Positions 12,483-26,011 of a DNA stretch of 64,000 nucleotides are shown here, piece by piece (positions within the stretch are counted from its first letter, which is position 1; each line of letters begins with the position of its first letter). The notes under the pieces were generated by a model. That model was not told the DNA's origin. It saw nothing but the letters and a program-made list of their open reading frames with translations, and searched no databases. The stretch comes from Microgenomates group bacterium. Its GTDB lineage: Bacteria; Patescibacteriota; Microgenomatia; Daviesbacterales; UBA10151. Made by a program: the position numbers and the translations under genes. The stretch lies in contig JBAZXP010000001.1 of assembly GCA_041659805.1 (NCBI GenBank), positions 384,589 through 448,588 of the forward strand, given 5' to 3'.

Positions 12483-12486
12483 ATTT

Positions 12487-12996: not shown

Positions 12997-13030
12997 ACAC
13001 GAAGTATATCAAAAGTGCTAGGATAATTTA

Positions 13031-14482
13031 GTGAAGATTGTTAAAAAACATTATATTTTCTTAATCATTTTTTTTGTAACTGCTTTTTTGCGTCTTTACC
13101 GTCTGGATTATTTAACTACGTTTGGTCGGGATCAGGGAATAGACTTTTTAACAATCAGAGATATAATTGTTAATCATAAACTGACTTTAATAGGGATAAA
13201 GGTTTCTTTGGCTGATTTTTTTCAGGGTCCGGTTTATCTATATTTGTTAACTCCTCTATTTTATTCTTTCAAATTGAATCCTCTTGCAGGAGCAATAACT
13301 GCTGTCATCATTTCTTTACTAACGATAACAACTCTTTATTATATTGTTTTAAAAATATTTAACATGAGAGCAGCTAATTTAGCTGCCATTTTTTTTGCGG
13401 TTTCACCTCAGTTGGTTATGTTCGGTAACACACCTCTTTACCAAAATTTCACCCCTTTATTTATTTTGTTGGGAATTTGGTTTTTGTACAAAGCGTTGAT
13501 TGGAAAAATAAAAACTTCTAAGCAATATTTTTATATGTTTTTGACAGGATTTTTTATCGGAATAGGATTAGAACTTCACTTTTTGGTTATTTCGCTTGCA
13601 TTGGCATTAATTATTTATTTGATTCTTTTTACAAAAAATTTTTTAAAACTTTTAATTTTTTATTTTTTTGGATTAATAATTGCTGCAAGCCCCACAATTA
13701 TTTTTGAATTAAAGCATAATTTTTTAAATATTCATCTTCTGATAAACTATTTAAGCGGTAGGGAACAAAATCATTTATCATTCTTGTCTATTTGGTTAGA
13801 AAGATTAAATTTCTTTACTTTTAATGATTATAATTTTTTAATTATAGTTCCTTTACTATTCGGTATTTATCTCCTTTTAACAAAAGTTAAAAATCTATCT
13901 AATAATTTTTTATTTTTTAAAAAAATATCTTTAATTACTATGATAATTATTTTTATTTTTGCGATTAAATTAAGTGCTTTCGGAACTCATTATTTCTTAC
14001 CTCTTTTAATGTTGTTGCTAATTATTATTCCTGCAGTATTATCACTTATTAAATCGGAAAGATTCACAAATTTAATTTGTATTTTTTTTCTGGGAGCAAA
14101 TTTTGTAATCACTATTTTCCAGCTGAATAATAATCATGGATATTTTATGCCGGATGGATGGAGTCTGAATAAGATAGAACAAACCTCAAAGATTATTAGT
14201 GTAAGTGTGGGATCCCACCCTAACTTTAATGTGGCTTCGTTACTTGATGGAGATACCAGAACATATCCTGTAAGATACATGCTGACTGTTGCCGGAAGTC
14301 CGTCGGAGGATTTTACAACATATCCAAGTAATAATTATTTGTATGTTACAGGAAGAGATAAAAAACAAATTATTAATTCTGACGTATGGGAAATTTCATC
14401 CCTTCGCCCTTTTAAAGTAGAACAAGAATGGGATATGGGAGACGGAATTATCCTTTTTCTTTTAGCAAGGATCAGATCTTAA
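13031..14482 (+). CDS. glycosyltransferase family 39 / ArnT-PMT-like polyprenyl-phosphate-sugar transferase (multi-pass membrane)
   Basis: 483 aa, >10 TM helices, N-terminal YRLDYLTTFGRDQG motif region typical of ArnT/PMT_2 family; GTG start. Confidence 0.6.
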   Translation: MKIVKKHYIFLIIFFVTAFLRLYRLDYLTTFGRDQGIDFLTIRDIIVNHKLTLIGIKVSLADFFQGPVYLYLLTPLFYSFKLNPLAGAITAVIISLLTITTLYYIVLKIFNMRAANLAAIFFAVSPQLVMFGNTPLYQNFTPLFILLGIWFLYKALIGKIKTSKQYFYMFLTGFFIGIGLELHFLVISLALALIIYLILFTKNFLKLLIFYFFGLIIAASPTIIFELKHNFLNIHLLINYLSGREQNHLSFLSIWLERLNFFTFNDYNFLIIVPLLFGIYLLLTKVKNLSNNFLFFKKISLITMIIIFIFAIKLSAFGTHYFLPLLMLLLIIIPAVLSLIKSERFTNLICIFFLGANFVITIFQLNNNHGYFMPDGWSLNKIEQTSKIISVSVGSHPNFNVASLLDGDTRTYPVRYMLTVAGSPSEDFTTYPSNNYLYVTGRDKKQIINSDVWEISSLRPFKVEQEWDMGDGIILFLLARIRS

Positions 14483-14484
14483 CA

Positions 14485-14664
14485 TTACATCCCCAAAAGC
14501 TCTAAGACTTTATATAAAATTACTCCTGGCCAGAAGATTGCTTTTAAAATTCCTAAAACAAAAGCTACAGGAGTAGCAGCATGTTGAATAAAATAAACCA
14601 GAGCTCCCAAAACTCCAATTCCATAAATAGCGCCGCCACCTGCACCACAAATATTGCCTCTCAT
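14485..14664 (-). CDS. unannotated small glycine-zipper membrane protein (59 aa)
   Basis: Not in ORF track (<60 aa). ATG at 14664 preceded by TAAGGAGGTGAGGAA. MRGNICGAGGGAIYGIGVLGALVYF... hydrophobic. Confidence 0.45.
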   Translation of the reverse strand: MRGNICGAGGGAIYGIGVLGALVYFIQHAATPVAFVLGILKAIFWPGVILYKVLELLGM

Positions 14665-14756
14665 TTCCTCACCTCCTTATTTAAGTATTCTATTCTCTTG
14701 TTAACGTGTCAAGTTGGATTTCTTCATAAGATTATCGATTATGTTAAAGTTAAATA

Positions 14757-15332
14757 ATGGAAGCAGAGTTAGAGGTGGTTAGTACCAAATGGAAACATTG
14801 GCATTATAAAAACACTTTTCTTCTTATACTGAGTCTGATTATTTTCTTTTTGTTAGCAGATACCCCTTTTGTCAAAAATATTATCAGTTATATTGGGAAT
14901 TTTGGATATCTGGGGGCTTTTTTCGCAGGAATATTATTTGTATCTGTTTTTACAGTAGCCCCGGCATCAATAGTTTTATTTTATTTAGCAGAATCATTAA
15001 ATCCTCTCGGAATAGCTTTGGCAGCAGGTACAGGAGGAATGATAGGAGATTATTTGATATTTAAATATCTAAAAGATGAAGTCTTCGGTGAACTGAAACC
15101 TATACTTATACATCATGAAGGTAAACTTTTACAAAAAATATTTAGAACTCCTTATTTTGCTTGGATAGTTCCTATTATTGGGGCTGTAATAATTATGTCA
15201 CCTTTTCCTGATGAAGTAGGGATCGGATTAATGGGGGTCTCAAAAATGAAGACCTGGCAGTTGATGGGGCTTTTATATCTTCTGGATGTAGTAGGGATAT
15301 TTTTGATAGTAATAGCAGCCAGATCTTTTTGA
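14757..15332 (+). CDS. hypothetical integral membrane protein
   Basis: 191 aa with 4-5 TM helices. Confidence 0.45.
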   Translation: MEAELEVVSTKWKHWHYKNTFLLILSLIIFFLLADTPFVKNIISYIGNFGYLGAFFAGILFVSVFTVAPASIVLFYLAESLNPLGIALAAGTGGMIGDYLIFKYLKDEVFGELKPILIHHEGKLLQKIFRTPYFAWIVPIIGAVIIMSPFPDEVGIGLMGVSKMKTWQLMGLLYLLDVVGIFLIVIAARSF

Positions 15333-15396
15333 TATAACGTATGCCCACCCTTCTAGCTATGGCTATAGTAAGAGATGACGGACGAAGTTCTTGTAT

Positions 15397-16041
15397 TTAT
15401 TTCAGTATGCCTGCTTTATATAAATCCTCTACCAATTGTTCCTTGTCTTTGTTGAGGAGCAACATTTGCTCTCTTATTTCAGAATCAGTCAGAACTATTT
15501 TTTCACCTGAATTATATTTTTCCCGATGAAGGGCATCATAAACATCCGCTAAAGCCAACATTCTGCCATGTTCAAGTATTAAAGCTTGAGTATCTTGAGG
15601 GTATGAACGTAGATATGGTGGTAATTCTTTTGGGTATCCATTGGGTTGAAAATAATGATGCAAGACTATAATATCAGCAGTAAAACCAAATCTGTTTTTT
15701 ATTAAATTGTATCCATCCATAACATGAGACTGAATAATCTGGGCGTCTTGAGTACTCCAACCATATGTTTTACCCAAAACTTCAAGAGGTACCTGGTATT
15801 TTCCTATATCGTGGACTAGTCCTGCAAAAAGTGATGCTTTCTGGTCCATATGCAAAAATTCTCCAATTTCTCTTGTCTTTAATCCTACTCTGATTGAATG
15901 TTCTCCGTGAAGTTTGGTGATAGGACTTTTTGTCATTAATAAATCCAGATAAGATAAAAGAGTTGTCTGGTCTTCAGGTTTTACTTGGCATGTTTCAAAA
16001 GCATTTTGAAGTTGAATATCCAGCTCGTTTTGTTCAAGCAT
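15397..16041 (-). CDS. HD-domain phosphohydrolase
   Basis: HGEHSIRVG...GLVHDIGK (H..H...HD motif). Confidence 0.7.
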   Translation of the reverse strand: MLEQNELDIQLQNAFETCQVKPEDQTTLLSYLDLLMTKSPITKLHGEHSIRVGLKTREIGEFLHMDQKASLFAGLVHDIGKYQVPLEVLGKTYGWSTQDAQIIQSHVMDGYNLIKNRFGFTADIIVLHHYFQPNGYPKELPPYLRSYPQDTQALILEHGRMLALADVYDALHREKYNSGEKIVLTDSEIREQMLLLNKDKEQLVEDLYKAGILK

Positions 16042-16075
16042 AGCCAGATTATAACACTACCAAAAACATGAGATG

Positions 16076-16091
16076 AGCTGCGGGACTTGGA
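16076..16091. repeat. attL-like direct repeat (displaced tRNA-Gln 3'-end fragment)
   Basis: Identical to 33565-33580. Followed by a ~210 bp GC-richer non-coding stretch with hairpin CAGTCCACC-tttg-GGTGGACTG. Confidence 0.6.
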
Positions 16092-16305
16092 TAATACACC
16101 CAGTCCACCTTTGGTGGACTGTCGAACCCGCTTCACCACTGTGTGGAGCGCGTAATCCTCTGTCCAATAGTCCGTACCAAGTCCAAATGCCCCACAAAAG
16201 TGGGACTTTGTGCCTTTGCTGCCCGACGTATAAACAGTTCGTACTGCAATTAGCCTGGCTCGAACAATTAAGACAAGTATATCACCAAAGCGAGGAGGAA
16301 AAAGA

Positions 16306-16821
16306 ATGATATTTTCCTTCTGGAATTCTAAAGAATCTTCTGATTCATTGGTAAAATCTAAATTATTTGATGAAAACACTTTCTATGAAGCATTTATCAA
16401 AGACTTGAATAGATGCAAAGAAGAAGTAATTATTGAAAGTCCATATATTACTTGTAAACGGATGGATTTATTAGAATCCATATTTCAAAAACTGATGAAA
16501 CATGGAGTAAAAGTGTATATAATTACTCGTGACCCAAGAGAGCATGAGGAAAAGCTAGCAAGGCAAGCTGAGTTAGAGATTAGTATTTTTGAAGAGATGG
16601 GTGTACAAGTTTTACTATGTGCGGGGAATCATCATAGAAAATTAGCAATTCTGGATAGAAAAATATTGTGGGAAGGTAGCCTGAACATCTTGTCACAGAT
16701 GTACAGCCGTGAAATTATGCGAAGAATAGAAAGTGAAGCACTAACAAAGCAGATGTTTAATTTTTTGAATTTGGGTAAACTTACTAAGGAAAATTCTTTT
16801 ATAAAAAGGATGTTTTTATGA
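16306..16821 (+). CDS. phospholipase D-family (single HKD) nuclease, Nuc/BfiI-like
   Basis: 171 aa; HHRKLAILDRKILWEGSLN = HxK(x4)D(x6)GSxN PLD motif; GAGGAGG SD. Confidence 0.7.
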   Translation: MIFSFWNSKESSDSLVKSKLFDENTFYEAFIKDLNRCKEEVIIESPYITCKRMDLLESIFQKLMKHGVKVYIITRDPREHEEKLARQAELEISIFEEMGVQVLLCAGNHHRKLAILDRKILWEGSLNILSQMYSREIMRRIESEALTKQMFNFLNLGKLTKENSFIKRMFL

Positions 16822-17059: not shown

Positions 17060-17281
17060 TTATCCCTTTTTAGCCACGATTTTAAGACCAAGAACTTTAA
17101 GTATTCTTTCAAGGTTAGCAAAAGCTGGGTTAGATTCTCCTCTTTCTGTCATTGCATAAAAAGTTTCAGTGACTTTTGCTTCTTTTGCAACTTGAGCTTG
17201 AGTTAAGCCCTTCTTCTCTCGGGCTTCTTTTATCTGAGCTGCTAGCTTTGGATCTATCTTTTCTTTCTTATCAGTATTCAT
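17060..17281 (-). CDS. XRE-family helix-turn-helix transcriptional regulator
   Basis: 73 aa; KGLTQAQVAKEAKVTETFYAMTERGESNP Cro/C1-type HTH. Confidence 0.75.
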   Translation of the reverse strand: MNTDKKEKIDPKLAAQIKEAREKKGLTQAQVAKEAKVTETFYAMTERGESNPAFANLERILKVLGLKIVAKKG

Positions 17282-17384: not shown

Positions 17385-17528
17385 ATGAGTGACTTAAAAG
17401 AAGCAATCAAGCTTAAAGATCCTGAGAAGATAGCAGAAATAATCCTAGCTGGTTTTCAACAGCTTGATGAGGATCTAAAAGAACAAGCAAAGCTTAAGAA
17501 ATCATCAAAGTCAAAAAAGAAAAACTAA
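17385..17528 (+). CDS. small lysine-rich protein (47 aa), divergent from the XRE regulator
   Basis: ATG at 17385, MSDLKEAIKLKDPEK...KSKKKN; below ORF-track cut-off. Confidence 0.3.
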   Translation: MSDLKEAIKLKDPEKIAEIILAGFQQLDEDLKEQAKLKKSSKSKKKN

Positions 17529-19252
17529 AGCTCTATCTCATTCCCAAGAAGATCAGTAATAGTCCTTTTACGTTTTAATTTTCGTGGGTACTTTTCAAAA
17601 AATTCTTTGTTCTCTTCTACTAAATAAATCGTGCAATAACCTGTTCCATCTTCATATTTTAACTCTCTACCTTTCAAAATCCCTTGTCTTTCAAGTTTTC
17701 TAAGTGTGGAAGAATGCAAGCCGCACTCATCAGTTATTTTCCAACCTTGAAGCCAAATATCACTATTCTTTACAGCTTCATAAGGGATATTTCCTTTCTT
17801 TATGTTCATATGGCAATCAAAACAGGTAATCCCATCTAAAGTCCACCATATTTTCTTGCCAGGAGTAGATGATTTACAGATCATACAGGTATATGTTGCA
17901 TCTCCTTCGAGAAGAAATCCCTCTGGTTCATGTTCTAGCCTTTTTTTCCTTGTATTTTCAATTCCTTGCATTTCTCCAGAAAGCCTAACTAACTGAATTA
18001 AATGATAGTTTCCATACTTCATTCTTGCTTCATAGTCTATTTTTGAAGGCTTTTCTTCTTTTTTCTCACCTGTAAGCTCAAAAAAATCTTCCTCTCGTTC
18101 ATATCCTTTCAATCTTCCTGATAAATAACCAAGACGATAGAATACTCCCTCAGTCATCAAACGCCAGTTTGTTCCCTCAAGTCTATCCTTTATAAGTTTT
18201 TGAATCGTGGATACACTAATATTTTCACTGCGTGAAGAATCACTATCTTGAATACTAAAAGGGACAATGACATATTGTCCTATCTCTGGTTTATCAAACG
18301 ACAGCTTAACAAAATGTTCTTTTTCAAGCACCTCATTTAAAAGCTTTTCCAATTCTAAGATAGTAAGTTTTTTCAAACCAGCAACTTTTTGGTAAGCGAA
18401 ACTATCGTATTTTTGTAATTCTTCCTGGTATATTTGCGGGGCAATTTTAAAGGCCTCAATGTACTCAAAACTTTCTTTTCCTTCCTTATCAGAGCAAAAT
18501 TCTTCTCGATATTCCTCCAAAAGCTTTTTATCTTCTTCCTCCTGTTTTTTCCTCTCAGCTCTATGTTTTTCTAAATCATCTTCTGTAGTTTCTGTAAAAC
18601 CACATGATGCACAAGTTGTTTTCCATATAATTTTCTCCTTACTTTCCTTAACAACAGACATATCAATTTCAGCCTTACATTTAGGACATAACTGTGGTTT
18701 TGTTTCATATTCTTTTCCATCTTCATAAATCCATCGTTTCTTTTTACAGTTGGAACAATTAAACAGGAACATCATGTGTAATTGTTTGTCTAATGTATCA
18801 AGGTGTTTAATCGTGACTTTCATTAACTTTTTACAGTCAGGACAGATTATTTCTTGAGGTTCAGGGGTATTATCGTATTTATCTTGTTCTATACTGTCAG
18901 AATCCATCCATTCTTGTATTGCCTCTTCTTTATGACTATATCTTTGGCCTTTTATTTGATAAAGCTCTTGGTTGGTAATCCAACCAAACCATTTTGCCTT
19001 ATCTCCAGCAGAAAACTTTTTAGATTCTTCACTATTCAGGTGTTTTTCATAAGTTTTTGTCCATGACTCAATAGCCTCAAGACATCTTTTAATCGTAAAT
19101 AAGTCATATCGGTCTATATAATGCTGTTTATCTTTAAGGTATTCCATATATCTATCTTTGATTATAATATTCTTCCTCGTTATCTTCATCTGATCCGTCA
19201 AGAAAAGATAAAAATTCATAATCAGAACCGAACTCTTTCCATTTAATTCCAA
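17525..19252 (-). CDS. multi-zinc-ribbon protein with C-terminal MerR/excisionase-like HTH (hypothetical)
   Basis: At least four CxxC...CxxC pairs (CPDC..CSNC, CPKC..CASC, CMIC, CFDC). C-terminal ITDECGLHSSTLRKLERQGILKG HTH. Track start overlaps the upstream XRE gene, so true start is probably MEYLKDK near 19147. Confidence 0.5.
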   Translation of the reverse strand: MELNGKSSVLIMNFYLFLTDQMKITRKNIIIKDRYMEYLKDKQHYIDRYDLFTIKRCLEAIESWTKTYEKHLNSEESKKFSAGDKAKWFGWITNQELYQIKGQRYSHKEEAIQEWMDSDSIEQDKYDNTPEPQEIICPDCKKLMKVTIKHLDTLDKQLHMMFLFNCSNCKKKRWIYEDGKEYETKPQLCPKCKAEIDMSVVKESKEKIIWKTTCASCGFTETTEDDLEKHRAERKKQEEEDKKLLEEYREEFCSDKEGKESFEYIEAFKIAPQIYQEELQKYDSFAYQKVAGLKKLTILELEKLLNEVLEKEHFVKLSFDKPEIGQYVIVPFSIQDSDSSRSENISVSTIQKLIKDRLEGTNWRLMTEGVFYRLGYLSGRLKGYEREEDFFELTGEKKEEKPSKIDYEARMKYGNYHLIQLVRLSGEMQGIENTRKKRLEHEPEGFLLEGDATYTCMICKSSTPGKKIWWTLDGITCFDCHMNIKKGNIPYEAVKNSDIWLQGWKITDECGLHSSTLRKLERQGILKGRELKYEDGTGYCTIYLVEENKEFFEKYPRKLKRKRTITDLLGNEIEL

Positions 19253-19454
19253 GCGACTTTCTAATTTTATCTAATGTACGCATACCAATGCTACCAGTTT
19301 TTCCACGCTCGATTTTACCGTAATAATTGGGATTTAAATCAGCTCCTACAGCAACATCTACCCTTGTTCTCTTCTGTTCTAATCTTATTTGTATTATTCT
19401 TTGGCATAATAATTTTTGCCTTTTGAGTCCCTGTTCAGAAATTCTATGTTTCAT
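19152..19454 (-). CDS. XRE-family HTH transcriptional regulator
   Basis: 100 aa; RIIQIRLEQKRTRVDVAVGADLNPNYYGKIERGKTGSIGMRTLDKIRKSLGI. Confidence 0.65.
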   Translation of the reverse strand: MKHRISEQGLKRQKLLCQRIIQIRLEQKRTRVDVAVGADLNPNYYGKIERGKTGSIGMRTLDKIRKSLGIKWKEFGSDYEFLSFLDGSDEDNEEEYYNQR

Positions 19455-19510: not shown

Positions 19511-22045
19511 TTGGCTATCTTAAATATAGGAACTTTGCTAGAATTGAACCAGAATATGTCAAAAATACCATTTAGTGTATCAGCTAGAACCGCAAGATTA
19601 ATAGGAAGGGAAAATGTCAGTAATGCAGAAGGTGCAATAATTGAATTAGTTAAGAACGCTTATGATGCTGATGCAAGTACATGTATAGTTTTTTTTAAAA
19701 AGGATTTTAGCGGAATTCCTGAGCAACTATCTATACAAGAATATACTCAAATCTCTACAAAGCAAACTTTTAAGGAAATAAAAGATTGCTACGAAAAAAA
19801 TAATGAGGGATACCAACTTAAAACCCTAATTGGCGATAAAACAGAGGTTTTATCTTCTTTTTTTAATTCGTTGTGTGAAATTTATATCATAGACAATGGG
19901 ACGGGTATGACACGAAATGTGCTTGAAAATCAATGGATGATGATAGGAACAGACAATAAATTGGAGAACTATATATCAAAAAAGAAACGTATACAAACAG
20001 GAGCCAAGGGAATTGGAAGGTTTGCGCTCGATAGGCTTGGATCTTTTTGCGAGGTGCTTACTAAATCTGAAGATTCTTCAGAAGGGTATAAATGGGCTGT
20101 AAATTGGGAGAATTTTGAAAAGAAAAACACAGATATAGGTAAGATTTATGCGGAATTAGAAGTGGTTCAAAAATTTAGTAGCGACTCTTTGTCATTTTTC
20201 AAAAAAACAGAGAATGAAGTAATTATGCCTTTATTGGGAAAATTTGAGCATGGAACCATATTGAGAATTAAATCATTGAGCGATACATGGAATTCTGAAA
20301 GCATCACTAATATTTATCATGTTTTAGAATCATTAACTCCCCCTGGAACATTTCAGGAATTTAAAATGTTTGTTTTTAATTCTGAAGATTTAAATGCTTT
20401 TGGAGAAGTTAAAAACTTTATTAATGATGATTTTGATTACCAAGTTAATGCAACTTTTAATTCTGAAAAACAACTTAATATAAAGATCTCAAGACGTGAG
20501 TTTGATTACAAAAAAATTGATAAAAAGCTTTTCTTACAAAAAGAAATGCAAAAATCTCCTTATACCGAAGAGGATTTTAAAAAAGGCTATTTTTTAATAA
20601 AAATGGATATCCATAAATTATTACCTGGGGGACTAAACGAATATATACTTAATAATTTAGGGCCTTTTGAATTTAATTTCTACTTCATTAAGCGTCAAAC
20701 TACTAACGAAGATAGGGAGGTTTTTTCTTTTAGAGATTTCAACCAAGCGCGAAGAGCAGAATGGTTAGATAGATCAAGTGGAATTAAAATTTTTCGAGAC
20801 AATTTTAGAATTAGGCCCTACGGAGAGCCAAAAGGATCAACATATGATTGGTTGGGATTAGACATGCGGGCTGCTAAAAGCCCTGCTGGATTTGCTCAAA
20901 GAATTGGGCAATGGCATGTTAGATCATACCAAGTGGCCGGTGAAGTTAATATTTCTAGGATAACTAATATCTATTTTGATGATAAATCTAGTAGAGAAGG
21001 TTTACAAGAAAATGCCTACTTTAAAGTATTCAAAAATATTTTAAATGAAATAGTTGCACTTTTTGAAAGAGATCGAGAATACATAGGAATAAACATGAAA
21101 AGTTTTTCCAAGAAAAATAATGAAGAAGAAAAAACCAAAGAGGAAGCTCATGAAATTGCAGAAATGATAACCTCAACGCCCTCATCTCCACAACAGTCAT
21201 TGGATATTGATCCACAAAGTCTAAAGCAACAACTAGAAACTGTTTCTAAAGGATTTAAAATTAAGGAAAAAGAGCAAGAAGAATTATTGACTGAAGCAAA
21301 AATGCTTCGTACGTTAGCTAGTTCAGGTTTATTAGTAGCTACATTTGCTCATGAATTAAGACAGTTAGGAGGAACCTTATCCCGAAGAGTAGATTTACTC
21401 GAGCAATGCCTAGAAGGTGTTATAGATAAGAGTAAATTAGCTTCATTGCCAACCCATTTAGATCCATATAAAAGATTGCAAAGATTAAGAGATGATGACT
21501 TGAAACTTAAGAATTGGATAGACTTATCAGTAAACACATTACAAAGAAATAAAAGGGATCTAATTAAGATAAATCTAACTAAATATTTATCTGAATATAT
21601 CGAATATGTAAATAACATAGTAAAATTCAAAGAAGCACATATAGAATTTAAAAGTACATCTGATGACATAGAAATAAAAGTTTTTCCAATAGATATGGAC
21701 AGTATATTTAATAATTTGCTTGCAAATTCAATTGCAGGATTTCTTCGTAAAGATGCACCTAATGAAAGAAAAATTAGTATAAATATATCGGCTACAACTA
21801 ATAACGTTATCATCGAATATCTCGATAGCGGCCCAGGTTTAGATTCTTCAATTCCTTACCCAGAAAAAATTTATGATTTGTTTTTTACTACTAAAATAAA
21901 TGAGGTAGGAGAAAAAATAGGTACAGGTTTAGGTATGTGGATAGTAAAATCTATTATTGAAGAGTATGAAGGTAGTATAAATATAACAAAAGTACGCCCT
22001 GGATTCGGTATTAAAATGGAAATCCCTAAACATATAAGCAAATAG
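19511..22045 (+). CDS. GHKL-ATPase / sensor histidine kinase fusion protein (N-terminal MORC/HATPase_c_3-like ATPase + C-terminal HisKA H-box and HATPase_c)
   Basis: 844 aa. N-terminal Bergerat motifs ELVKNAYDADAS (N-box), IIDNGTGM (G1), GAKGIGRFALDRLG (G2). C-terminal ATFAHELRQ (H-box), FNNLLANSIAG (N), YLDSGPGLD (G1), GTGLGMWIVKS (G2). TTG start at 19511; alternative ATG at 19556. Confidence 0.7.
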   Translation: MAILNIGTLLELNQNMSKIPFSVSARTARLIGRENVSNAEGAIIELVKNAYDADASTCIVFFKKDFSGIPEQLSIQEYTQISTKQTFKEIKDCYEKNNEGYQLKTLIGDKTEVLSSFFNSLCEIYIIDNGTGMTRNVLENQWMMIGTDNKLENYISKKKRIQTGAKGIGRFALDRLGSFCEVLTKSEDSSEGYKWAVNWENFEKKNTDIGKIYAELEVVQKFSSDSLSFFKKTENEVIMPLLGKFEHGTILRIKSLSDTWNSESITNIYHVLESLTPPGTFQEFKMFVFNSEDLNAFGEVKNFINDDFDYQVNATFNSEKQLNIKISRREFDYKKIDKKLFLQKEMQKSPYTEEDFKKGYFLIKMDIHKLLPGGLNEYILNNLGPFEFNFYFIKRQTTNEDREVFSFRDFNQARRAEWLDRSSGIKIFRDNFRIRPYGEPKGSTYDWLGLDMRAAKSPAGFAQRIGQWHVRSYQVAGEVNISRITNIYFDDKSSREGLQENAYFKVFKNILNEIVALFERDREYIGINMKSFSKKNNEEEKTKEEAHEIAEMITSTPSSPQQSLDIDPQSLKQQLETVSKGFKIKEKEQEELLTEAKMLRTLASSGLLVATFAHELRQLGGTLSRRVDLLEQCLEGVIDKSKLASLPTHLDPYKRLQRLRDDDLKLKNWIDLSVNTLQRNKRDLIKINLTKYLSEYIEYVNNIVKFKEAHIEFKSTSDDIEIKVFPIDMDSIFNNLLANSIAGFLRKDAPNERKISINISATTNNVIIEYLDSGPGLDSSIPYPEKIYDLFFTTKINEVGEKIGTGLGMWIVKSIIEEYEGSINITKVRPGFGIKMEIPKHISK

Positions 22046-22047
22046 AT

Positions 22048-22683
22048 ATGAGTAATTATAATATTGCCTTTATAGATGACGATCAGGGTGTTATAGACGA
22101 TTTCCTTGTTACTGCTGGGAATAAATCGGTAGATGTTCAAACCTTTGAATTATCTCCTGATAAAGAAAGTTTGGTTGATGAAATCGCAAAATCTAATGTT
22201 GATGCGATAGTCATTGATTTTCATCTTGCCGATACTCGACCAAATATCAAATATGATGGCGCAGAGGTAATGAATCAATTGGAAGAGGTGACTTACAATA
22301 TCCCAAAGTTTATTTTTACTGCTTTTTCGTCTGCAGCTGAAGATAAAAGTAATGATATTAATATAGTTTATGAAAAAGAAGGAGATTTTGGGCCATTTAT
22401 TGATAAAGTAATAAAACAAATCGATAAATACAAACATCGATTGGAAGAGTATCAAGAGGAATTGATGAGTTTAATAGAGAAGAGTAAAACTACCAAATTA
22501 AATGTAGAAGAGGAAGAGCGCGCTTTAGAATTAGATAATATTATCGAGAAGTCTTTGAACAAAAGACTTTCCTTACCTGATAGCCTCAAAAAACCTTCAA
22601 CTATTTCAACGCTCGACAAACTTCTTTCAGAGGCAGAACAAATAGTAAAGGAGTTACAAAATCGTAACAATGCAAAATCTTAG
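22048..22683 (+). CDS. stand-alone response-regulator receiver (REC) domain protein with C-terminal coiled-coil
   Basis: 211 aa; acidic pair FIDDDQ, phospho-acceptor-like Asp in AIVIDFHLAD, T in FIFTAFS, conserved K near 109. Start 3 nt after upstream stop. Confidence 0.6.
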   Translation: MSNYNIAFIDDDQGVIDDFLVTAGNKSVDVQTFELSPDKESLVDEIAKSNVDAIVIDFHLADTRPNIKYDGAEVMNQLEEVTYNIPKFIFTAFSSAAEDKSNDINIVYEKEGDFGPFIDKVIKQIDKYKHRLEEYQEELMSLIEKSKTTKLNVEEEERALELDNIIEKSLNKRLSLPDSLKKPSTISTLDKLLSEAEQIVKELQNRNNAKS

Positions 22684-23260
22684 ATCTAAAATACCACAAC
22701 GAACTTGCACGAGAGAATACACAGATTACACTTCCTATAAAAGCTACTTAAAATCTGATTTTGACAGTAGGTGTGGTTATTGTGATGACCATGATCAATA
22801 TTATGGTGGTTCTGACTCATATCATATTGATCATTTCGCACCTAAAAAATTTGCGGATTTAATCTCTAAGTACAGCAATCTTGTATATTCGTGCCCATTT
22901 TGTAACAAGGCTAAGCGCAATAAATGGCCTTCAGATGATCAGAATGTGAATGTTGTAGGTGATGAAGGATTTATTGACCCCTGTAGTGAGAACTATGATA
23001 TTCATTTGAACCGTGATGAAAATGGTAGCATAATCTCTGTTACCCCAATTGGTGGTTATATGCATAAGCATTTAGAATTAAATTTGAATAGACATGCCAT
23101 AATCTGGAAATTAGATAGAATTAATGAAGCAATAACTAAAATTCAAGTACTGAGAGATAGCGATTCAGAACTAGGTGAAGATTTATCAAATAGACTAAAC
23201 CAACTATTGGCAGACTATAGAGAATATGACCAAAGATTAAAAGACACATATAACAAGTAA
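22670..23260 (+). CDS. HNH endonuclease
   Basis: 196 aa; CGYCDD...HIDHFAPKK...NLVYSCPFCNKAK = CxxC-HxxH-N-CxxCN beta-beta-alpha-Me motif. 14 nt overlap with REC gene; C-terminal helical tail. Confidence 0.75.
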   Translation: MQNLRSKIPQRTCTREYTDYTSYKSYLKSDFDSRCGYCDDHDQYYGGSDSYHIDHFAPKKFADLISKYSNLVYSCPFCNKAKRNKWPSDDQNVNVVGDEGFIDPCSENYDIHLNRDENGSIISVTPIGGYMHKHLELNLNRHAIIWKLDRINEAITKIQVLRDSDSELGEDLSNRLNQLLADYREYDQRLKDTYNK

Positions 23261-23383
23261 TATTTTCAAGTAAAAAGACTGCAGACTTTGTAGGAAAATT
23301 ATAGTATGATTAAAAAGTGCTGCCTAGTTTTATATTAAAAACCTGATTAATTAAAAGGGGTAAATGAGACTGCAGAGTTATTA

Positions 23384-24667
23384 ATGAAAAAAAATACTAC
23401 TCTTCTCAAAAAGGGTTGGGATGATAAAGTAGGATACTTTCCTACACCAGCTAATATTGTAGCGCAGTTTACTTGTCTTACTACTGATTTTATAAAACCA
23501 TATTTGCCTTCCCAAATTGATGTGTTAGATTTATTTGCTGGAGATGGAAGATTAGGCATAGAACTATCAAAATCTCTATACAATAATAACTATAAACCTC
23601 ATACAACTTTTGTTGAGATTCAGCAGGAAGAGATAGAGAAAATCAAAGCTAATACTAAAAATACTAAGGTTTTTAAACGCAATATATTTAAATGGTCAAC
23701 AAAAAAGAGGTTTGATTTAGTAATTTCTAATCCCCCATATTTAATACTAAATTCGCCTGATGCAGGAAAGCTTGGATTCAATTGGGAATATGCTAAAAAA
23801 CATGGAAGAAATTTATATACATTAGGAATTATCAAAGCTTTAGCTTTATGTAGAGAAGGAGGAATTGTCGCCGTAATCTCTCCATTTAGTTGGTTAAGAG
23901 GAGAATACAGTAAAGAATTTAGAGAGATAATAAATCAAAATTGTTCAAGAGTATTAATAAAGGCAAACGATCATAGAACAGTATTTAAAGGTGTTAATCA
24001 AGATATTGGTTTCCAATTTTTTATTAAAAGATACAGACATGAGACATCACTAACAAAATGGCAATTTGGGTATAATGGTAATAATCCTGAAGAGATTCTT
24101 TTTGAGAACTTAGAAAGAAAGAATAGCTATTATCAATTAAGCTCTAGAGTAATGGTTGGTACTATCGTATGGAATAGAAATAAAGAATATCTTACTTCAC
24201 AAAAACATAATAGTACCCTAGTAGTTTATGGTGGTAATATAGGCCATGATGGAAAACTTAATTGTAATATTTCAAAATATAAAGATAAACAATATATTCA
24301 AAACAAAGTTTTATCAAAAACAGATGTATTTGAATCTCCTCTAATATTAATACGGAGAATTATGAGAGGAATACCAGGCAACTGGATGATTGATTCCTGC
24401 TTAATCGAAAAACCCTTTAAGTGTGTTGTTGAAAATCATGTGATTGTTATTGAAATACCAAAGGGGAAAGTAGCCTCGTATAGAAGATTTTATGAAAACA
24501 TAATGGATAGAATAAAAGAATATTATTATTTCTCTGGAAGCCCATCAATAAGCGGAAGGGTTGTAAAACAAATAATAATGGATCTAGAGCTTTCTTTGAT
24601 TAAAGAAAAGGATGCGTCAAATTATCTTCCAACCAGTCAAGAAAACATACATCTATTATTTGATTAA
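23384..24667 (+). CDS. N6-adenine DNA methyltransferase (gamma-class, FxGxG...NPPY)
   Basis: 427 aa; GYFPTPANIV (motif X), DLFAGDGRLG (motif I), DLVISNPPY (motif IV); C-terminal ~200 aa putative TRD. Confidence 0.75.
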   Translation: MKKNTTLLKKGWDDKVGYFPTPANIVAQFTCLTTDFIKPYLPSQIDVLDLFAGDGRLGIELSKSLYNNNYKPHTTFVEIQQEEIEKIKANTKNTKVFKRNIFKWSTKKRFDLVISNPPYLILNSPDAGKLGFNWEYAKKHGRNLYTLGIIKALALCREGGIVAVISPFSWLRGEYSKEFREIINQNCSRVLIKANDHRTVFKGVNQDIGFQFFIKRYRHETSLTKWQFGYNGNNPEEILFENLERKNSYYQLSSRVMVGTIVWNRNKEYLTSQKHNSTLVVYGGNIGHDGKLNCNISKYKDKQYIQNKVLSKTDVFESPLILIRRIMRGIPGNWMIDSCLIEKPFKCVVENHVIVIEIPKGKVASYRRFYENIMDRIKEYYYFSGSPSISGRVVKQIIMDLELSLIKEKDASNYLPTSQENIHLLFD

Positions 24668-25240
24668 TAACTCACCCTTCTTCGACAGGTCGCTATTTGC
24701 AAATATTTTTAAATAGTCAAAGTTTTTTAGTTCATTATTCAATTCCTTAAGGGAAATGCTTCTTTCAGTTCCTAACATTTCCCATATCATCATGATTGTT
24801 TGTTCCCAATCATTACCAAGTTGACCAAGAATAAATCGTAGTACAAACTCTGATATTTCTTCAGCTGTACCTTCAAAGCTAATTTTTCTTTCTCCTAATT
24901 GATCAATAAAGTTAGACACAATTCTATCCTCTTCATAAGTAACCCAATCTGGTGTATCTTTACCAATATTTGTAGGAGGATATTTATCATTTAATACCGA
25001 AGTATCGATAGTTGAATTAAGCTTAATTTGTTCTATAGTATCTTCAAGAAGTTTTCTCCAGTCATGAAGTGCTTTTTGAGATCTAATCATAGTAGTTAAA
25101 AATTGATTTCTATCCCCTGATGTTCCAATTATTTTGGGATAATTTTTTGTCTTAGCTATTTCTTTTATTAACGCAAAAGTATCTTTATCCCATTGATCAA
25201 AAAGAGGATATCGATATTTAGGAGGGTTATTTATAGCCAT
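24656..25240 (-). CDS. hypothetical protein (last gene of 4-gene minus-strand operon)
   Basis: 194 aa, no motif recognised. Confidence 0.4.
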   Translation of the reverse strand: MAINNPPKYRYPLFDQWDKDTFALIKEIAKTKNYPKIIGTSGDRNQFLTTMIRSQKALHDWRKLLEDTIEQIKLNSTIDTSVLNDKYPPTNIGKDTPDWVTYEEDRIVSNFIDQLGERKISFEGTAEEISEFVLRFILGQLGNDWEQTIMMIWEMLGTERSISLKELNNELKNFDYLKIFANSDLSKKGELLIK

Positions 25241-25243
25241 AGT

Positions 25244-26011
25244 TTATTTAATAATTAAATCTCTAATAAAATTAACAAACTCAGCTGTTTTAGAGTAGGT
25301 TTCTTTACCGTCAATCTTTTTATTTTCTCTATTTTTATACCATTCTAAAGCTTCTTTAATTAAGGATGACCATTGAGGAAGTTGTTCTATAGTCCACTGA
25401 GCAGCTTGTTTTTTAGACACTTGTTCACCATTTTTGACCGCATAGTATGCTCTACATAGAGTAAGAATCGCATAGCCCTGGGCTCCTTTAGTATGCATAT
25501 CTTTTACCCATTCACTCCAAGAGGAAGTATGTGACTTTACTGCTTCAATAAATTCTTCTTTTGAGATTGGTTCAATTATTATTTTTGGATCAGCACCAAA
25601 TAGCGTTACACCATTTTCTCGAACTATGTACCAATTCATTAACCAATGCTTTCCAACTACTCTTTTATGAAATGGTTCACCTGGACTAATGACAGCAATT
25701 TCACTCTCTTCTGTTTTGAAGGTTTTTAGAGCAGATTTTGGCATATACTGAACTTCGATTCTGTCGTTCCATTCTGTATGTTCATTTGCAAAATCTTGAT
25801 GCATTTTTTCTAAAGCCTTAAATTCTTCATCTGTTAAATCAGATTCCAAAGCAGCTACTAAATCTATATCACTAATATTCTGATCAAAATCACCAGTAAC
25901 AAGAGAACCATATAGGTATAAACCAATTAGCTTTCCTCCTAAAACACTTTGAATTTTAGAAAGAATAATCTGGAGTAAATTATTAATATCCGGATATTGT
26001 GTAGGACTCAT
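25244..26011 (-). CDS. nucleotidyltransferase, AadA/ANT(3'')-like (Pol-beta NTase + C-terminal helical domain)
   Basis: 255 aa; LIGLYLYGSLVTGDFDQNISDIDLVAAL strongly resembles the aminoglycoside adenylyltransferase GS...SDIDL core. Confidence 0.6.
   Translation of the reverse strand: MSPTQYPDINNLLQIILSKIQSVLGGKLIGLYLYGSLVTGDFDQNISDIDLVAALESDLTDEEFKALEKMHQDFANEHTEWNDRIEVQYMPKSALKTFKTEESEIAVISPGEPFHKRVVGKHWLMNWYIVRENGVTLFGADPKIIIEPISKEEFIEAVKSHTSSWSEWVKDMHTKGAQGYAILTLCRAYYAVKNGEQVSKKQAAQWTIEQLPQWSSLIKEALEWYKNRENKKIDGKETYSKTAEFVNFIRDLIIK

What the first reader, a model, noticed from the sequence alone, without database searches (positions are those of the whole stretch)
19511..23260. Three-gene operon: GHKL-ATPase/histidine-kinase fusion, stand-alone receiver, HNH nuclease - candidate two-component-type (Detocs-like) defence system with a nuclease effector
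Three tightly packed or overlapping plus-strand genes inside the mobile element.

(1) An 844 aa protein has two Bergerat-fold ATPase modules. The N-terminal one is MORC/MutL-type (ELVKNAYDADAS, IIDNGTGM, GAKGIGRFA). A ~350 aa middle region of unknown function follows, then a classical HisKA H-box (ATFAHELRQ) and HATPase_c.
(2) A 211 aa REC-only protein with a C-terminal coiled coil.
(3) A 196 aa HNH endonuclease with a C-terminal helical tail but no REC domain.

The only known antiphage system with this logic is Detocs (DtcA kinase, DtcB REC-only 'buffer', DtcC REC+effector). Its effector is usually a PNP nucleosidase fused to a REC domain. Here the effector is a free HNH nuclease, and the kinase carries an extra N-terminal GHKL ATPase that could be the infection sensor. 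I am not aware of this architecture having been described. Its position among a PLD nuclease, a methyltransferase and NTase/kinase genes on an integrative element fits a defence island.
Basis: partly seen in the sequence, partly recalled or inferred. Interest (0 to 1): 0.85.

Follow-up and report, generated by a model that had tools for sequence, protein, structure and literature searches.

The report
Ambrosia-type kinase-gated restriction-modification defence operon
The three genes are real, but they are the core of a four- to five-gene, restriction-modification-like phage-defence operon (MORC-like ATPase/histidine kinase, receiver protein, HNH nuclease, adenine methyltransferase, plus a controller protein) that was named "Ambrosia" in a 2025 preprint, so this is a distant new member from a candidate-phyla-radiation bacterium and not a new kind of system.

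Summary
The three ORFs and all cited motifs are present. The kinase probably starts at ATG 19556 (829 aa), not TTG 19511. The unit is larger than reported. In 80 genomes from many bacterial phyla and an archaeon, the kinase is followed by the REC protein (76/76) and the HNH (74/74), with an adjacent N6-adenine methyltransferase (73/74). In the window the methyltransferase is 23384-24667, and a divergent R-M controller-like XRE gene lies at 19152-19454.

The kinase, REC and HNH proteins are homologous to AbrB, AbrC and AbrD of Ambrosia (bioRxiv 10.1101/2025.09.30.679545). That P. aeruginosa defence system needs the N-terminal ATPase Asn, the REC Asp, the HNH His, the methyltransferase and the XRE protein. 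A sister family was described in 2021 (HEF_HK/Response_reg_2), and the paraMORC/R-M link dates from 2008. It is not Detocs: there is one REC protein and the effector has no REC domain.

New here:
- The "unknown" middle region is a MORC/MutL-type transducer plus a coiled-coil linker.
- The REC tail is a three-helix bundle, not the winged helix the preprint proposes, which favours direct licensing of the nuclease.
- The family is far wider than reported, and the host is a Microgenomates (CPR) bacterium.

The parts
19152..19454 (-). XRE-family HTH gene (100 aa), divergent from the kinase. Probable controller (C-protein/AbrR-like) regulator; an accessory rather than core component.
   Evidence: Pfam HTH_3 3.2e-7. 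PADLOC R-M 'Control_protein' 1.2e-7. Small HTH genes abut the kinase gene in at least 22 of 79 related loci but are absent in the two closest relatives.
19556..20290 (+). Kinase fusion protein, N-terminal GHKL (Bergerat) ATPase domain, residues 16-260 of the 844-aa ORF numbering. The mechanical ORF starts at TTG 19511; the likely true start is ATG 19556.
20291..21010 (+). Kinase fusion protein, S5-type transducer (middle) domain, residues about 261-500, with invariant motifs RDxFRxRPYG (429-438), DWL (446-448) and SRxxN...DKSxREGxQE (482-500).
21011..21550 (+). Kinase fusion protein, long helical linker plus DHp domain with the phospho-acceptor H614 (H-box ATFAHELRQ), residues about 501-680.
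   Evidence: Helices 502-555, 568-606, 608-635 and 652-678. H614 is invariant in 98 sequences. HK853/ZraS/LvrB alignments start at profile positions 575-600.
21551..22045 (+). Kinase fusion protein, catalytic ATP-binding (CA) domain of a histidine kinase, residues about 681-844.
22048..22683 (+). Stand-alone receiver protein (211 aa): REC domain 1-114 (D10/D11, D57, T91, K110) plus a C-terminal three-helix bundle/coiled coil 115-209. AbrC homologue.
   Evidence: AlphaFold pLDDT 81, (beta-alpha)5 fold plus helices 115-148, 153-170 and 184-209, with no strands. Foldseek hits are receiver domains only. Present in 76/76 loci. AbrC scores 4e-22 against a clean family HMM and hhalign gives 92%. D57 aligns with AbrC D60.
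22670..23260 (+). PtuB-like HNH endonuclease (196 aa), overlapping the REC gene by 14 bp. Zn-binding Cys C35/C38/C75/C78 (C35 and C75 are 100% conserved), catalytic D54-H55, N79, K82. AbrD homologue.
   Evidence: Pfam HNH 1.4e-7. PADLOC PtuB 4.9e-18 covering residues 11-192. TIGR02646. AbrD BLASTP 1e-17 and clean HMM 1e-30. Present in 74/74 loci, with REC-HNH overlap in 64/75. Conserved residues.
23276..23379 (+). HNH-methyltransferase spacer carrying two copies of AGACTGCAGA(C/G)TT (23276-23288 and 23367-23379, 91 bp apart), each with a palindromic core. Candidate operator or internal promoter region (inferred).
   Evidence: GACTGCAGA occurs only twice in the 64-kb window, both times here. 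Repeat and palindrome calls.
23384..24667 (+). N6-adenine DNA methyltransferase (427 aa, Eco57I-type, gamma-class order: motif I G53, motif IV NPPY 116-119). A short form of the family's methyltransferase and the functional counterpart of AbrA.
   Evidence: Pfam Eco57I 2.3e-17. PADLOC MTase_II 3.2e-24. An adjacent methyltransferase is found in 73/74 loci. NPPY and C-terminal residues G259, N266, R324, W334 and Y382 are conserved in the family. The closest relatives have the same short form, 426-439 aa. AbrA scores 8e-22 against the clean family HMM although pairwise BLASTP is not significant.

Best explanation
The locus is a distant member (about 28-29% identity) of the Ambrosia family of restriction-modification-like anti-phage systems, carried on an integrative mobilisable element of a Microgenomates (CPR/Patescibacteria) bacterium.

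The core is four co-transcribed genes:
- a soluble kinase whose N-terminal two-thirds is a MORC/MutL-type GHKL ATPase plus transducer and whose C-terminal third is a classical DHp+CA histidine kinase;
- a REC protein with a helical tail;
- a PtuB-like HNH nuclease;
- an N6-adenine DNA methyltransferase.
A divergent controller-type XRE gene is a probable accessory.

Proposed mechanism:
1. [inferred] The XRE protein keeps the operon low or ordered, as R-M controller proteins do.
2. [inferred from MORC/MutL biology] The paraMORC module binds or clamps DNA in an ATP-dependent way and reports invading or replicating foreign DNA, possibly by reading the mark laid down by the methyltransferase.
3. 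[sequence shows all catalytic residues intact and invariant] This is transmitted through the long helical linker to the DHp domain. H614 is autophosphorylated and the phosphate passes to D57 of the REC protein.
4. [inferred] Phospho-REC unleashes the HNH nuclease on the invader.

Shown experimentally for the P. aeruginosa homologue only: defence is lost in N40A (ATPase), D60A (REC), H60A (HNH), T72A (methyltransferase) and XRE mutants; expression rises on infection; infected cells survive.

For the link between phospho-REC and the nuclease I favour direct protein-protein licensing over transcriptional activation. The REC tail here is a long three-helix bundle with no DNA-binding fold. REC and HNH genes overlap in most loci. 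HK, REC and HNH co-diverge tightly.
For: - Homology to Ambrosia: kinase vs AbrB(1-399) E 2e-45, covering residues 10-500, and AbrB vs the family HMM 5.6e-68. HNH vs AbrD 1e-17 and 1e-30 against a clean HMM. REC vs AbrC 4e-22 over the full length against a clean HMM and hhalign 92%. AbrA 8e-22 against the clean methyltransferase HMM.
- Essential Ambrosia residues are conserved: N40->N49, D60->D57, H60->H55.
- Synteny: REC 76/76, HNH 74/74, methyltransferase 73/74, with median gaps of 1, -8 and -4 nt. The same operon is found in Bacillus, Pectobacterium and Methanolobus, in the closest relatives and on a conjugative Bacillus plasmid.
- Co-divergence: HK-REC r=0.92, REC-HNH r=0.85, and methyltransferase r=0.54-0.64 with a median identity of 20%.
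- Controller-like XRE.
Against: - No experiment exists on this locus or on any long-form or non-proteobacterial member. Ambrosia itself is a non-peer-reviewed preprint.
- Identity to Ambrosia is low. The pairwise REC match is weak (E 4e-4) and the methyltransferases are not detectably similar pairwise.
- The gene order differs: the methyltransferase comes last here and first in Ambrosia.
- The preprint reports infection-induced expression and a wHTH in AbrC, which supports a transcriptional route. My argument against it rests on a monomer AlphaFold model of the window protein, not of AbrC.
- No REC-HNH or HK-HNH fusion was found that would support direct contact.
- The role of the methyltransferase is unclear. 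In Ambrosia, phage grown on an AbrA-only host was still restricted.
- The XRE gene is not conserved in the closest relatives, so its membership is uncertain.
Confidence: 0.75

Rival explanations
1. Transcriptional model (the Ambrosia preprint's own reading). The kinase senses infection and phosphorylates the REC protein, which acts as a DNA-binding response regulator and, together with the XRE repressor, switches on transcription of otherwise silent, potentially self-toxic methyltransferase and HNH genes.
For: The preprint reports that reporters replacing abrA or abrD are barely expressed without phage and strongly expressed during infection, and that D60A abolishes defence. An XRE/controller-type gene is present in the window. 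Two 13-nt repeats in the HNH-methyltransferase spacer could be an operator.
Against: The window REC protein has no recognisable DNA-binding domain. Its tail is three long helices (34, 18 and 26 residues) with no strand, and Foldseek finds only receiver domains. AbrC aligns with this tail. Kinase, REC, HNH and methyltransferase are in one tightly packed or overlapping operon, so a regulator encoded in the same transcript as its targets would have to be pre-made. Induction on infection could be due to the XRE protein alone.
Confidence: 0.3
2. Detocs-like system. A kinase senses infection, a REC-only protein buffers or relays phosphate, and a separate effector is activated, here a free HNH instead of a REC-PNP fusion.
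For: There is shared two-component logic with a soluble kinase and a REC-only protein.
Against: Detocs is defined by two REC proteins: the DtcB buffer and DtcC, a REC fused to the effector. Here there is one REC protein, and the HNH has no REC domain, since the PtuB model covers residues 11-192 of 196. No PADLOC defence family other than a weak REase_II hit matched the kinase. A DNA methyltransferase is an integral part of the unit, which Detocs lacks. Direct homology is to Ambrosia.
Confidence: 0.03
3. An ordinary type II/IV restriction-modification pair (methyltransferase plus HNH) that merely sits next to, or is loosely regulated by, a housekeeping two-component system.
For: Methyltransferase plus HNH plus C-protein is a classical R-M gene set. 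The N-terminal GHKL resembles that of BbrUII/HgiDII-type restriction enzymes (NCBIfam 3.6e-10).
Against: Kinase, REC, HNH and methyltransferase are syntenic in 73-76 of 74-76 loci across phyla and an archaeon, usually with overlapping reading frames. Kinase, REC and HNH co-diverge. The kinase module is almost never found without the paraMORC module. In Ambrosia all parts are needed for defence, and methylation by AbrA alone does not protect phage.
Confidence: 0.03
4. Primarily a selfish addiction/stabilisation module of mobile elements (post-segregational killing by a methyltransferase/nuclease pair), with phage defence as a by-product.
For: In the window it lies on an integrative element, and it occurs on conjugative plasmids. 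The distribution is patchy and cross-phylum. In Pectobacterium it is flanked by transposase and integrase genes.
Against: Many copies are chromosomal without obvious mobility genes. No host toxicity was reported for Ambrosia. This reading is not mutually exclusive with defence.
Confidence: 0.1

Closest known systems
Ambrosia (AbrR-AbrA-AbrB-AbrC-AbrD), P. aeruginosa; bioRxiv 10.1101/2025.09.30.679545 (Sept 2025)
   Same: Same five gene types: XRE regulator, N6-adenine methyltransferase, HATPase_c_3+HATPase_c kinase, REC protein of about 210 aa, and a PtuB/TIGR02646-like HNH of about 200 aa. Kinase, REC and HNH are demonstrably homologous, and the experimentally essential residues are conserved.
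   Different: - Only 28-29% identity.
- The window kinase belongs to the long class (829 aa, with a ~55-residue insertion in the GHKL domain) against 747 aa for AbrB.
- The methyltransferase is last in the operon, not first, and is a short Eco57I-type enzyme not pairwise-similar to AbrA.
- The XRE gene is divergent.
- The host is a CPR bacterium, whereas the preprint found Ambrosia only in Gammaproteobacteria (537 instances).
- The REC tail is modelled as a helical bundle, not a wHTH.
HEF_HK (PF19191) / Response_reg_2 (PF19192) two-component-like pairs next to R-M systems (Bellieny-Rabelo et al. 2021, PMC8011034)
   Same: Identical kinase architecture (N-terminal HATPase_c_3, DHp, C-terminal HATPase_c; soluble). 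An adjacent REC-only protein. Tight linkage to methyltransferases and nucleases. Proposed descent from paraMORCs.
   Different: Neither the window proteins nor their Pectobacterium, Bacillus or Methanolobus homologues match PF19191 or PF19192. That family is mostly linked to C5-cytosine methylases, Vsr and HNH_2, whereas this one is linked to N6-adenine methylases and PtuB-like HNH. It is a sister family, not the same family.
MORC / paraMORC GHKL+S5 ATPases of R-M systems (Iyer, Abhiman & Aravind 2008, PMC2292703)
   Different: Here the C-terminal extension is a complete histidine kinase that pairs with a receiver protein. No SF2 helicase is present.
Septu (PtuA ATPase + PtuB HNH) and retron type I-A effectors
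   Same: The nuclease is PtuB-like over nearly its whole length (PADLOC 4.9e-18, residues 11-192). As in Septu, an HNH is partnered with a large ATPase.
   Different: There is no PtuA-type ABC/AAA ATPase. The partner is a GHKL ATPase-kinase acting through a REC protein, and a methyltransferase is present.
Detocs (DtcA kinase, DtcB REC buffer, DtcC REC-effector)
   Same: Use of His-Asp phosphotransfer in anti-phage defence, with a soluble kinase.
   Different: There is one REC protein, not two. The effector is not fused to REC. The effector is a DNA nuclease, not a nucleosidase. A methyltransferase is included. No sequence relationship was detected.
BREX / Pgl (methyltransferase-dependent defence with ATPase and, in Pgl, a protein kinase)
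   Same: The methyltransferase is of the Eco57I/PglX-like N6-adenine type (PADLOC PglX 7.6e-8, NCBIfam BREX PglX 1.4e-8) and, in Ambrosia, is required for defence rather than only for self-protection. Phospho-signalling is combined with methylation.
   Different: There is no PglZ, BrxC or BrxL. A dedicated HNH nuclease is present, and the system is much smaller.

Membership tests
Ambrosia (bioRxiv 2025.09.30.679545) | AbrB-type kinase: N-terminal HATPase_c_3 ATPase with an essential Bergerat Asn, plus a C-terminal HATPase_c kinase | tested here: met
   Pfam. BLASTP to AbrB(1-399) 2e-45. AbrB vs family HMM 5.6e-68. N49 is invariant and aligned to AbrB N40.
Ambrosia (bioRxiv 2025.09.30.679545) | AbrC-type REC protein (about 210 aa) with a phospho-acceptor Asp | tested here: met
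   AbrC vs a clean family HMM 4e-22 over the full length. hhalign 92%. D57 aligns with D60. REC fold in the model. Pairwise BLASTP alone is weak (4e-4).
Ambrosia (bioRxiv 2025.09.30.679545) | AbrD-type HNH (PtuB/TIGR02646-like) with a catalytic His | tested here: met
   BLASTP 1e-17. Clean HMM 1e-30. PADLOC PtuB 4.9e-18 and TIGR02646. H55 aligns with H60.
Ambrosia (bioRxiv 2025.09.30.679545) | Adjacent N6-adenine DNA methyltransferase (AbrA) | tested here: met
   Eco57I-type N6A methyltransferase with NPPY at 23384-24667. AbrA matches the family methyltransferase HMM at 8e-22. However, pairwise BLASTP between the window methyltransferase and AbrA is not significant, and the gene position differs.
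Ambrosia (bioRxiv 2025.09.30.679545) | XRE-type regulator (AbrR) in the cluster | tested here: inconclusive
   A divergent HTH_3 / R-M Control_protein-like ORF lies 101 bp upstream of ATG 19556. HTH genes accompany only about a quarter to a third of family loci and are absent in the closest relatives.
Ambrosia (bioRxiv 2025.09.30.679545) | Authors' HMM bit-score thresholds (AbrA 100, AbrB 500, AbrC 150, AbrD 200) | not testable with these tools
   The HMMs are not available here. Given about 28% identity and the authors' Gammaproteobacteria-only result, this locus would probably fall below their thresholds.
Ambrosia (bioRxiv 2025.09.30.679545) | Anti-phage activity dependent on all components | not testable with these tools
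   This needs experiment.
Detocs | Two receiver proteins: a REC-only buffer (DtcB) and a REC fused to the effector (DtcC) | tested here: not met
   There is only one REC gene in the operon. The HNH protein is PtuB-like over residues 11-192 of 196, with no REC.
Detocs | Sequence similarity of the kinase or REC to DtcA/DtcB/DtcC | tested here: not met
   The PADLOC scan gave only REase_II (3.1e-4) for the kinase and PDC-M60B (4.7e-4) for the REC. I did not verify that Detocs models are in that library copy.
HEF_HK / Response_reg_2 TCS-like pairs (PMC8011034) | Match to Pfam PF19191 (HEF_HK) in the kinase and PF19192 (Response_reg_2) in the REC protein | tested here: not met
   There was no hit even at E<=10 for the window proteins or for the Pectobacterium, Bacillus or Methanolobus homologues. 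None of the 120 best kinase homologues carries PF19191 in the precomputed Pfam annotation.
HEF_HK / Response_reg_2 TCS-like pairs (PMC8011034) | Architecture of HATPase_c_3 + DHp + HATPase_c, soluble, with an adjacent REC-only gene, near R-M genes | tested here: met
MORC/paraMORC GHKL ATPases | GHKL domain with intact ATP-binding motifs followed by an S5-fold transducer domain | tested here: met
Septu | PtuA ABC-type ATPase partnered with a PtuB HNH | tested here: not met
   A PtuB-like HNH is present, but no PtuA-like ATPase is encoded in or next to the operon.
Classical histidine kinase / response regulator pair | H-box His; N, G1 and G2 boxes; REC acidic pocket D-D, phospho-Asp, T/S, K | tested here: met
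   H614, N735/N739, D772xGxG and G804xGxG are invariant. D10, D57, T91 and K110 are conserved. Phosphotransfer itself was not tested.

The most novel reading that the evidence does not exclude
The REC protein is not a transcription factor but an adaptor. Phosphorylation of D57 by the paraMORC-kinase remodels its three-helix tail, which directly binds and licenses the PtuB-like HNH. The MORC-like ATPase/transducer module is the DNA sensor that reads the state of the operon's own adenine methylation mark. This would be a post-translationally phosphorelay-gated restriction enzyme. It would be widespread across bacteria, archaea and even reduced-genome CPR bacteria, and mechanistically different from both classical R-M and from the transcriptional model proposed for Ambrosia.
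Probability: 0.35. Interest if true: 0.6.

Novelty: new member of a known kind. Interest (0 to 1): 0.38.

Why it matters
The finding is not a new kind of system, but the follow-up has three uses.

1. It shows that the recently named Ambrosia system is one small branch of a large, ancient family. The family is present in at least 504 of about 186,000 species genomes, including Bacteroidota, Bacillota, Nitrospinota, Proteobacteria, Campylobacterota, an archaeon and now a CPR bacterium. It has at least 288 clusters at 50% identity and occurs on plasmids and integrative elements. In public annotation it appears only as [quoted passage not shown].

2. It defines the conserved core as four genes (kinase, REC, HNH, methyltransferase), with the HTH regulator as an accessory.

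3. The structural models give a testable alternative to the published transcriptional model. The sensor is a MORC/MutL-type DNA ATPase wired through a coiled coil to a histidine kinase, and the receiver carries a helical adaptor tail, not a DNA-binding domain. If phospho-REC directly gates the nuclease, this would be a simple, portable example of signal-gated restriction, and a prokaryotic model for how MORC-type ATPases couple DNA state to an output.

Tried and rejected
- Detocs membership: rejected on composition and lack of PADLOC similarity.
- MADS: the window methyltransferase hits PADLOC mad2 (1.5e-18), but the 'histidine kinase' in the MADS paper is only a hotspot boundary gene, and no other mad model matched.
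- HEF_HK/Response_reg_2 membership: no Pfam hit, so this is a sister family only.
- Rosetta-stone fusions: none of the 250 HNH homologues (the best 120 were inspected) is fused to REC or to the kinase; all are 180-209 aa. None was found in the 80 loci either.
- Phage carriage: no full-length kinase homologue in 50,697 phage records.
- Conservation of the window's XRE gene: phmmer and iterated HMM searches found no homologue in the 87 loci. The divergent genes of the two closest relatives are unrelated.
- att-site search for the element: no convincing flanking direct repeats between 10.8 and 34.2 kb.
- Promoter/terminator scans: no enrichment over shuffles, so uninformative.
- PDB sequence search for the N-terminal 570 residues and for the REC tail: nothing beyond kinase cores and compositional coiled-coil hits.
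- DefensePredictor (Science 2026) and the BREX-diversity (NAR 2026) papers: neither describes this operon in the text available.
- The hmmsearch scores of AbrC, AbrD and AbrA were discarded as circular, because those proteins seeded the models. They were replaced by clean models.

Full report
**1. Observation**

They are separated by a 2-bp gap and a 14-bp overlap.

Pfam assigns HATPase_c_3 (3.4e-14) to the N-terminus of the large protein and HATPase_c (4.5e-12) to its C-terminus, and HNH (1.4e-7) to the third protein. The second protein matches Response_reg only weakly (6.6e-4, below the gathering score). NCBIfam histidine-kinase models align over residues about 529-840.

In a 98-sequence alignment the catalytic residues of both ATPase modules and the H-box His are invariant: N49, D128/G130/G132, G164-K166-G167-G169-R170, H614, N735/N739, D772/G774/G776 and G804/G806/G808.

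Homologues align only from M16, and the closest relatives are 829-830 aa. The true start is therefore most likely ATG 19556.

**2. The unit is bigger than three genes**

Neighbourhoods of homologues in Bacillus inaquosorum, Pectobacterium peruviense and the archaeon Methanolobus all show kinase, a ~200-aa protein, a ~195-aa HNH, and an Eco57I/N6_Mtase-type methyltransferase.

I then fetched 80 loci from species-representative genomes. At least 504 species carry a relative, which is a lower bound because only two exact peptide patterns were scanned. I scored the flanks with iterated HMMs. Where enough DNA is present:

| Gene | Frequency | Note |
|---|---|---|
| REC | 76/76 | follows the kinase |
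| HNH | 74/74 | follows REC |
| Adenine methyltransferase | 73/74 | 72 downstream, 1 upstream |

Median intergenic distances are 1, -8 and -4 nt, and REC and HNH overlap in 64 of 75 loci.

The window's gene at 23384-24667 is this methyltransferase. Its NPPY 116-119 and motif I G53 are conserved, and so are C-terminal positions.

A small HTH gene abuts the kinase gene in at least 22 of 79 loci (19 HTH_3/HTH_26 and 3 HTH_17). The window has a divergent HTH_3 ORF at 19152-19454, which also matches PADLOC's R-M "Control_protein" (1.2e-7). The two closest relatives (60-66% identity) have the same kinase-REC-HNH-short-methyltransferase operon but unrelated divergent genes. So the regulator is an accessory.

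**3. Literature**

Three papers bear directly on this.

- Iyer et al. 2008 defined paraMORC GHKL+S5 ATPases in R-M operons. They noted a paraMORC1 family with a conserved C-terminal extension that co-occurs with HNH nucleases.
- Bellieny-Rabelo et al. 2021 described soluble HATPase_c_3-DHp-HATPase_c kinases (HEF_HK, PF19191) linked 91.6% to REC-only proteins (Response_reg_2, PF19192) next to R-M genes, mainly C5 methylases and Vsr.
- A September 2025 bioRxiv preprint (10.1101/2025.09.30.679545) validated "Ambrosia" in P. aeruginosa. Its genes are AbrR (XRE), AbrA (N6-adenine methyltransferase), AbrB (histidine kinase/HATPase), AbrC (REC) and AbrD (HNH). Point mutations in each abolish defence. 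Reporters replacing abrA or abrD are induced on infection. Phage grown on an AbrA-only host stays sensitive. No host killing is seen. The authors found it only in Gammaproteobacteria (537 instances).

**4. Is the window locus homologous to these?**

The preprint's Table S1 gives the protein sequences, so I compared them directly.

- The window kinase aligns to the available 399 residues of AbrB at 28% identity, E 2e-45, across residues 10-500. AbrB scores 5.6e-68 against a family HMM that did not include it.
- The HNH aligns to AbrD at 29%, E 1e-17.
- The REC pairwise match is weak (E 4e-4) but centred on the phospho-acceptor, with D57 aligned to D60.
- With HMMs rebuilt only from the genome loci, AbrC scores 4e-22 over its full length, AbrD 1e-30 and AbrA 8e-22. 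hhalign of the REC alignment against AbrC gives 92% probability over AbrC 2-179.
- The window methyltransferase and AbrA are not pairwise-similar.

The experimentally essential residues N40 (AbrB), D60 (AbrC) and H60 (AbrD) correspond to the invariant N49, D57 and H55.

By contrast, neither the window proteins nor their homologues hit PF19191 or PF19192. The 2021 family is therefore a sister family. PADLOC gave no Detocs or other system hit for the kinase or REC. The HNH is PtuB-like over residues 11-192 (4.9e-18).

**5. Anatomy from structure prediction**

*Kinase.* The model (98-sequence alignment; pLDDT 81, pTM 0.75) shows four parts:
- a GHKL domain (about residues 16-260);
- a very confident alpha/beta domain (about 261-500);
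- long helices (502-678) containing the H-box;
- a CA domain.

An exhaustive search with that module finds 288 representatives (50% clusters) at E<=1e-30 and 2,238 at E<=1e-10. Nearly all full-length ones are 750-870 aa, so the module is almost always fused to the kinase. There are two size classes. The long class, which includes the window protein, has a ~55-residue insertion in the GHKL domain that AbrB (747 aa) lacks.

*REC.* The model (pLDDT 81) is a canonical (beta-alpha)5 receiver followed by three long helices (115-148, 153-170, 184-209) with no strand. Foldseek returns only receiver domains. The tail is conserved in the family and aligns with AbrC's C-terminal region. I therefore could not confirm the winged helix that the preprint ascribes to AbrC.

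**6. Evolutionary behaviour**

Across 69 complete loci the median pairwise identities are kinase 41%, HNH 37%, REC 31% and methyltransferase 20%. Pairwise identities of kinase, REC and HNH are tightly correlated (r = 0.79-0.92). The methyltransferase is less coupled (r = 0.54-0.64). This is what one expects if the first three form an interacting machine and the methyltransferase is a more exchangeable specificity module.

The operon is found on 15 plasmids at full length. One is a conjugative Bacillus plasmid, where it is annotated [quoted passage not shown]. It is not found in phage genomes.

**7. Host and context**

The REC and HNH proteins are 100% identical to entries from a "Microgenomates group bacterium" MAG on a 1.13-Mb contig. 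The host is thus a CPR/Patescibacteria bacterium.

The operon lies in a low-GC stretch carrying a serine recombinase, an FtsK/TraG-like ATPase and a Replic_Relax protein. The stretch also carries a PLD nuclease, an HD protein, two NUDIX proteins, an AadA-like nucleotidyltransferase and an AAA_33 kinase. None of these neighbours forms a recognisable complete defence system.

**8. Mechanism**

*Shown by sequence and structure here:* an intact paraMORC ATPase, an intact histidine kinase, an intact receiver, an intact HNH and an intact N6A methyltransferase, all in one operon.

*Shown experimentally for the homologue:* every activity is required for defence.

*Inferred:* the MORC-like module senses DNA state. 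The signal passes through the coiled-coil linker to H614. The phosphate goes to D57. Phospho-REC then releases HNH activity.

For that last step the preprint proposes transcriptional activation. I rate direct protein-level licensing as somewhat more likely for four reasons:
- the REC tail has no DNA-binding fold;
- REC and HNH are translationally coupled;
- the kinase/REC/HNH trio co-diverges;
- the regulator would be encoded on the same transcript as its targets.

Against this, no fusion proteins support direct contact. The induction data are real. My structural argument rests on a monomer model of the window protein, not of AbrC.

The methyltransferase's role is unresolved. It could provide a self mark read by the sensor, as in BREX or MADS, or it could create the nuclease's substrate.

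**9. Verdict**

This is a new, distant member of a known kind. The useful additions are:
- the four-gene core definition;
- the much wider phyletic range, including archaea and CPR;
- the MORC/MutL identity of the "unknown" region;
- a structural objection to the transcription-factor reading of the REC protein.

Noticed in passing
window 23276-23288 and 23367-23379: Two copies of AGACTGCAGA(C/G)TT, 91 bp apart, in the 123-bp HNH-methyltransferase spacer. GACTGCAGA occurs nowhere else in the 64-kb window (expected 0.27). Each copy has a palindromic CTGCAG core and lies within a longer imperfect inverted repeat. This is a candidate operator or internal promoter for the methyltransferase.
   Followed up: partly
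window, whole (e.g. 1710, 4426, ... 61130): CTGCAG (the PstI site) occurs 21 times against 8.3 +/- 2.9 expected from dinucleotide-preserving shuffles, and none of 100 shuffles reached 21. A palindrome over-represented rather than avoided is unusual. The relation to the methyltransferase, if any, is unknown.
   Followed up: no
window 33565-33637 (-) vs ORF 32059-33675 (+): A tRNA-Gln(CTG) gene on the minus strand lies inside the last ~110 nt of the mechanical serine-recombinase ORF. This suggests the element is integrated at or into the tRNA gene end, or that the recombinase ORF is shorter than listed. No flanking direct repeats were found.
   Followed up: partly
window 17525-19252 (-): A 575-aa protein rich in CxxC zinc-ribbon pairs with a Lys/Glu-rich coiled segment. 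It has no significant Pfam or PADLOC family. It lies just downstream of the XRE gene on the same strand, overlapping its 3' end by about 100 nt as called. Function unknown; it may be co-regulated with the XRE gene.
   Followed up: no
window 24656-26011 (-): An AadA-like/minimal nucleotidyltransferase (255 aa; NTP_transf_2 + AadA_C; PADLOC candidate PDC-S09 8.9e-8), followed 3 nt downstream on the minus strand by a 194-aa protein of no known family that converges on, and overlaps, the 3' end of the methyltransferase gene. Possibly a toxin-antitoxin or candidate defence pair.
   Followed up: no
window 12027-16821: A cluster of two tandem NUDIX hydrolases, a PMT_2 glycosyltransferase, an HD phosphohydrolase and a small PLD-family nuclease (PADLOC MkoC 2e-11, DrmC 1e-5) at the low-GC (29-30%) edge of the element. 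None forms a recognisable complete system.
   Followed up: partly
kinase family (P0040, P0170-P0283 vs P0001, P0024 etc.); window residues ~60-108: The kinase family has two length classes. The long class (825-870 aa) has a ~55-residue insertion inside the N-terminal GHKL domain. The window protein belongs to this class. The short class (750-790 aa), like the experimentally tested AbrB, lacks the insertion. The function of the insertion is unknown.
   Followed up: partly
L083 (Saprospiraceae MAG), L036, L056, L084: L083 is the only locus with kinase-REC-HNH but no adjacent methyltransferase, despite 5.8 kb of downstream sequence. L036 (kinase), L084 (HNH) and L056 (methyltransferase) show genes split into two ORFs, i.e. 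probable decay or sequencing frameshifts.
   Followed up: no
window 17060-17281 (-): A second XRE-family HTH gene (73 aa) lies 2 kb upstream of the operon, so the element carries at least two Cro/C1-type regulators. Which of them, if either, controls the operon is open.
   Followed up: no
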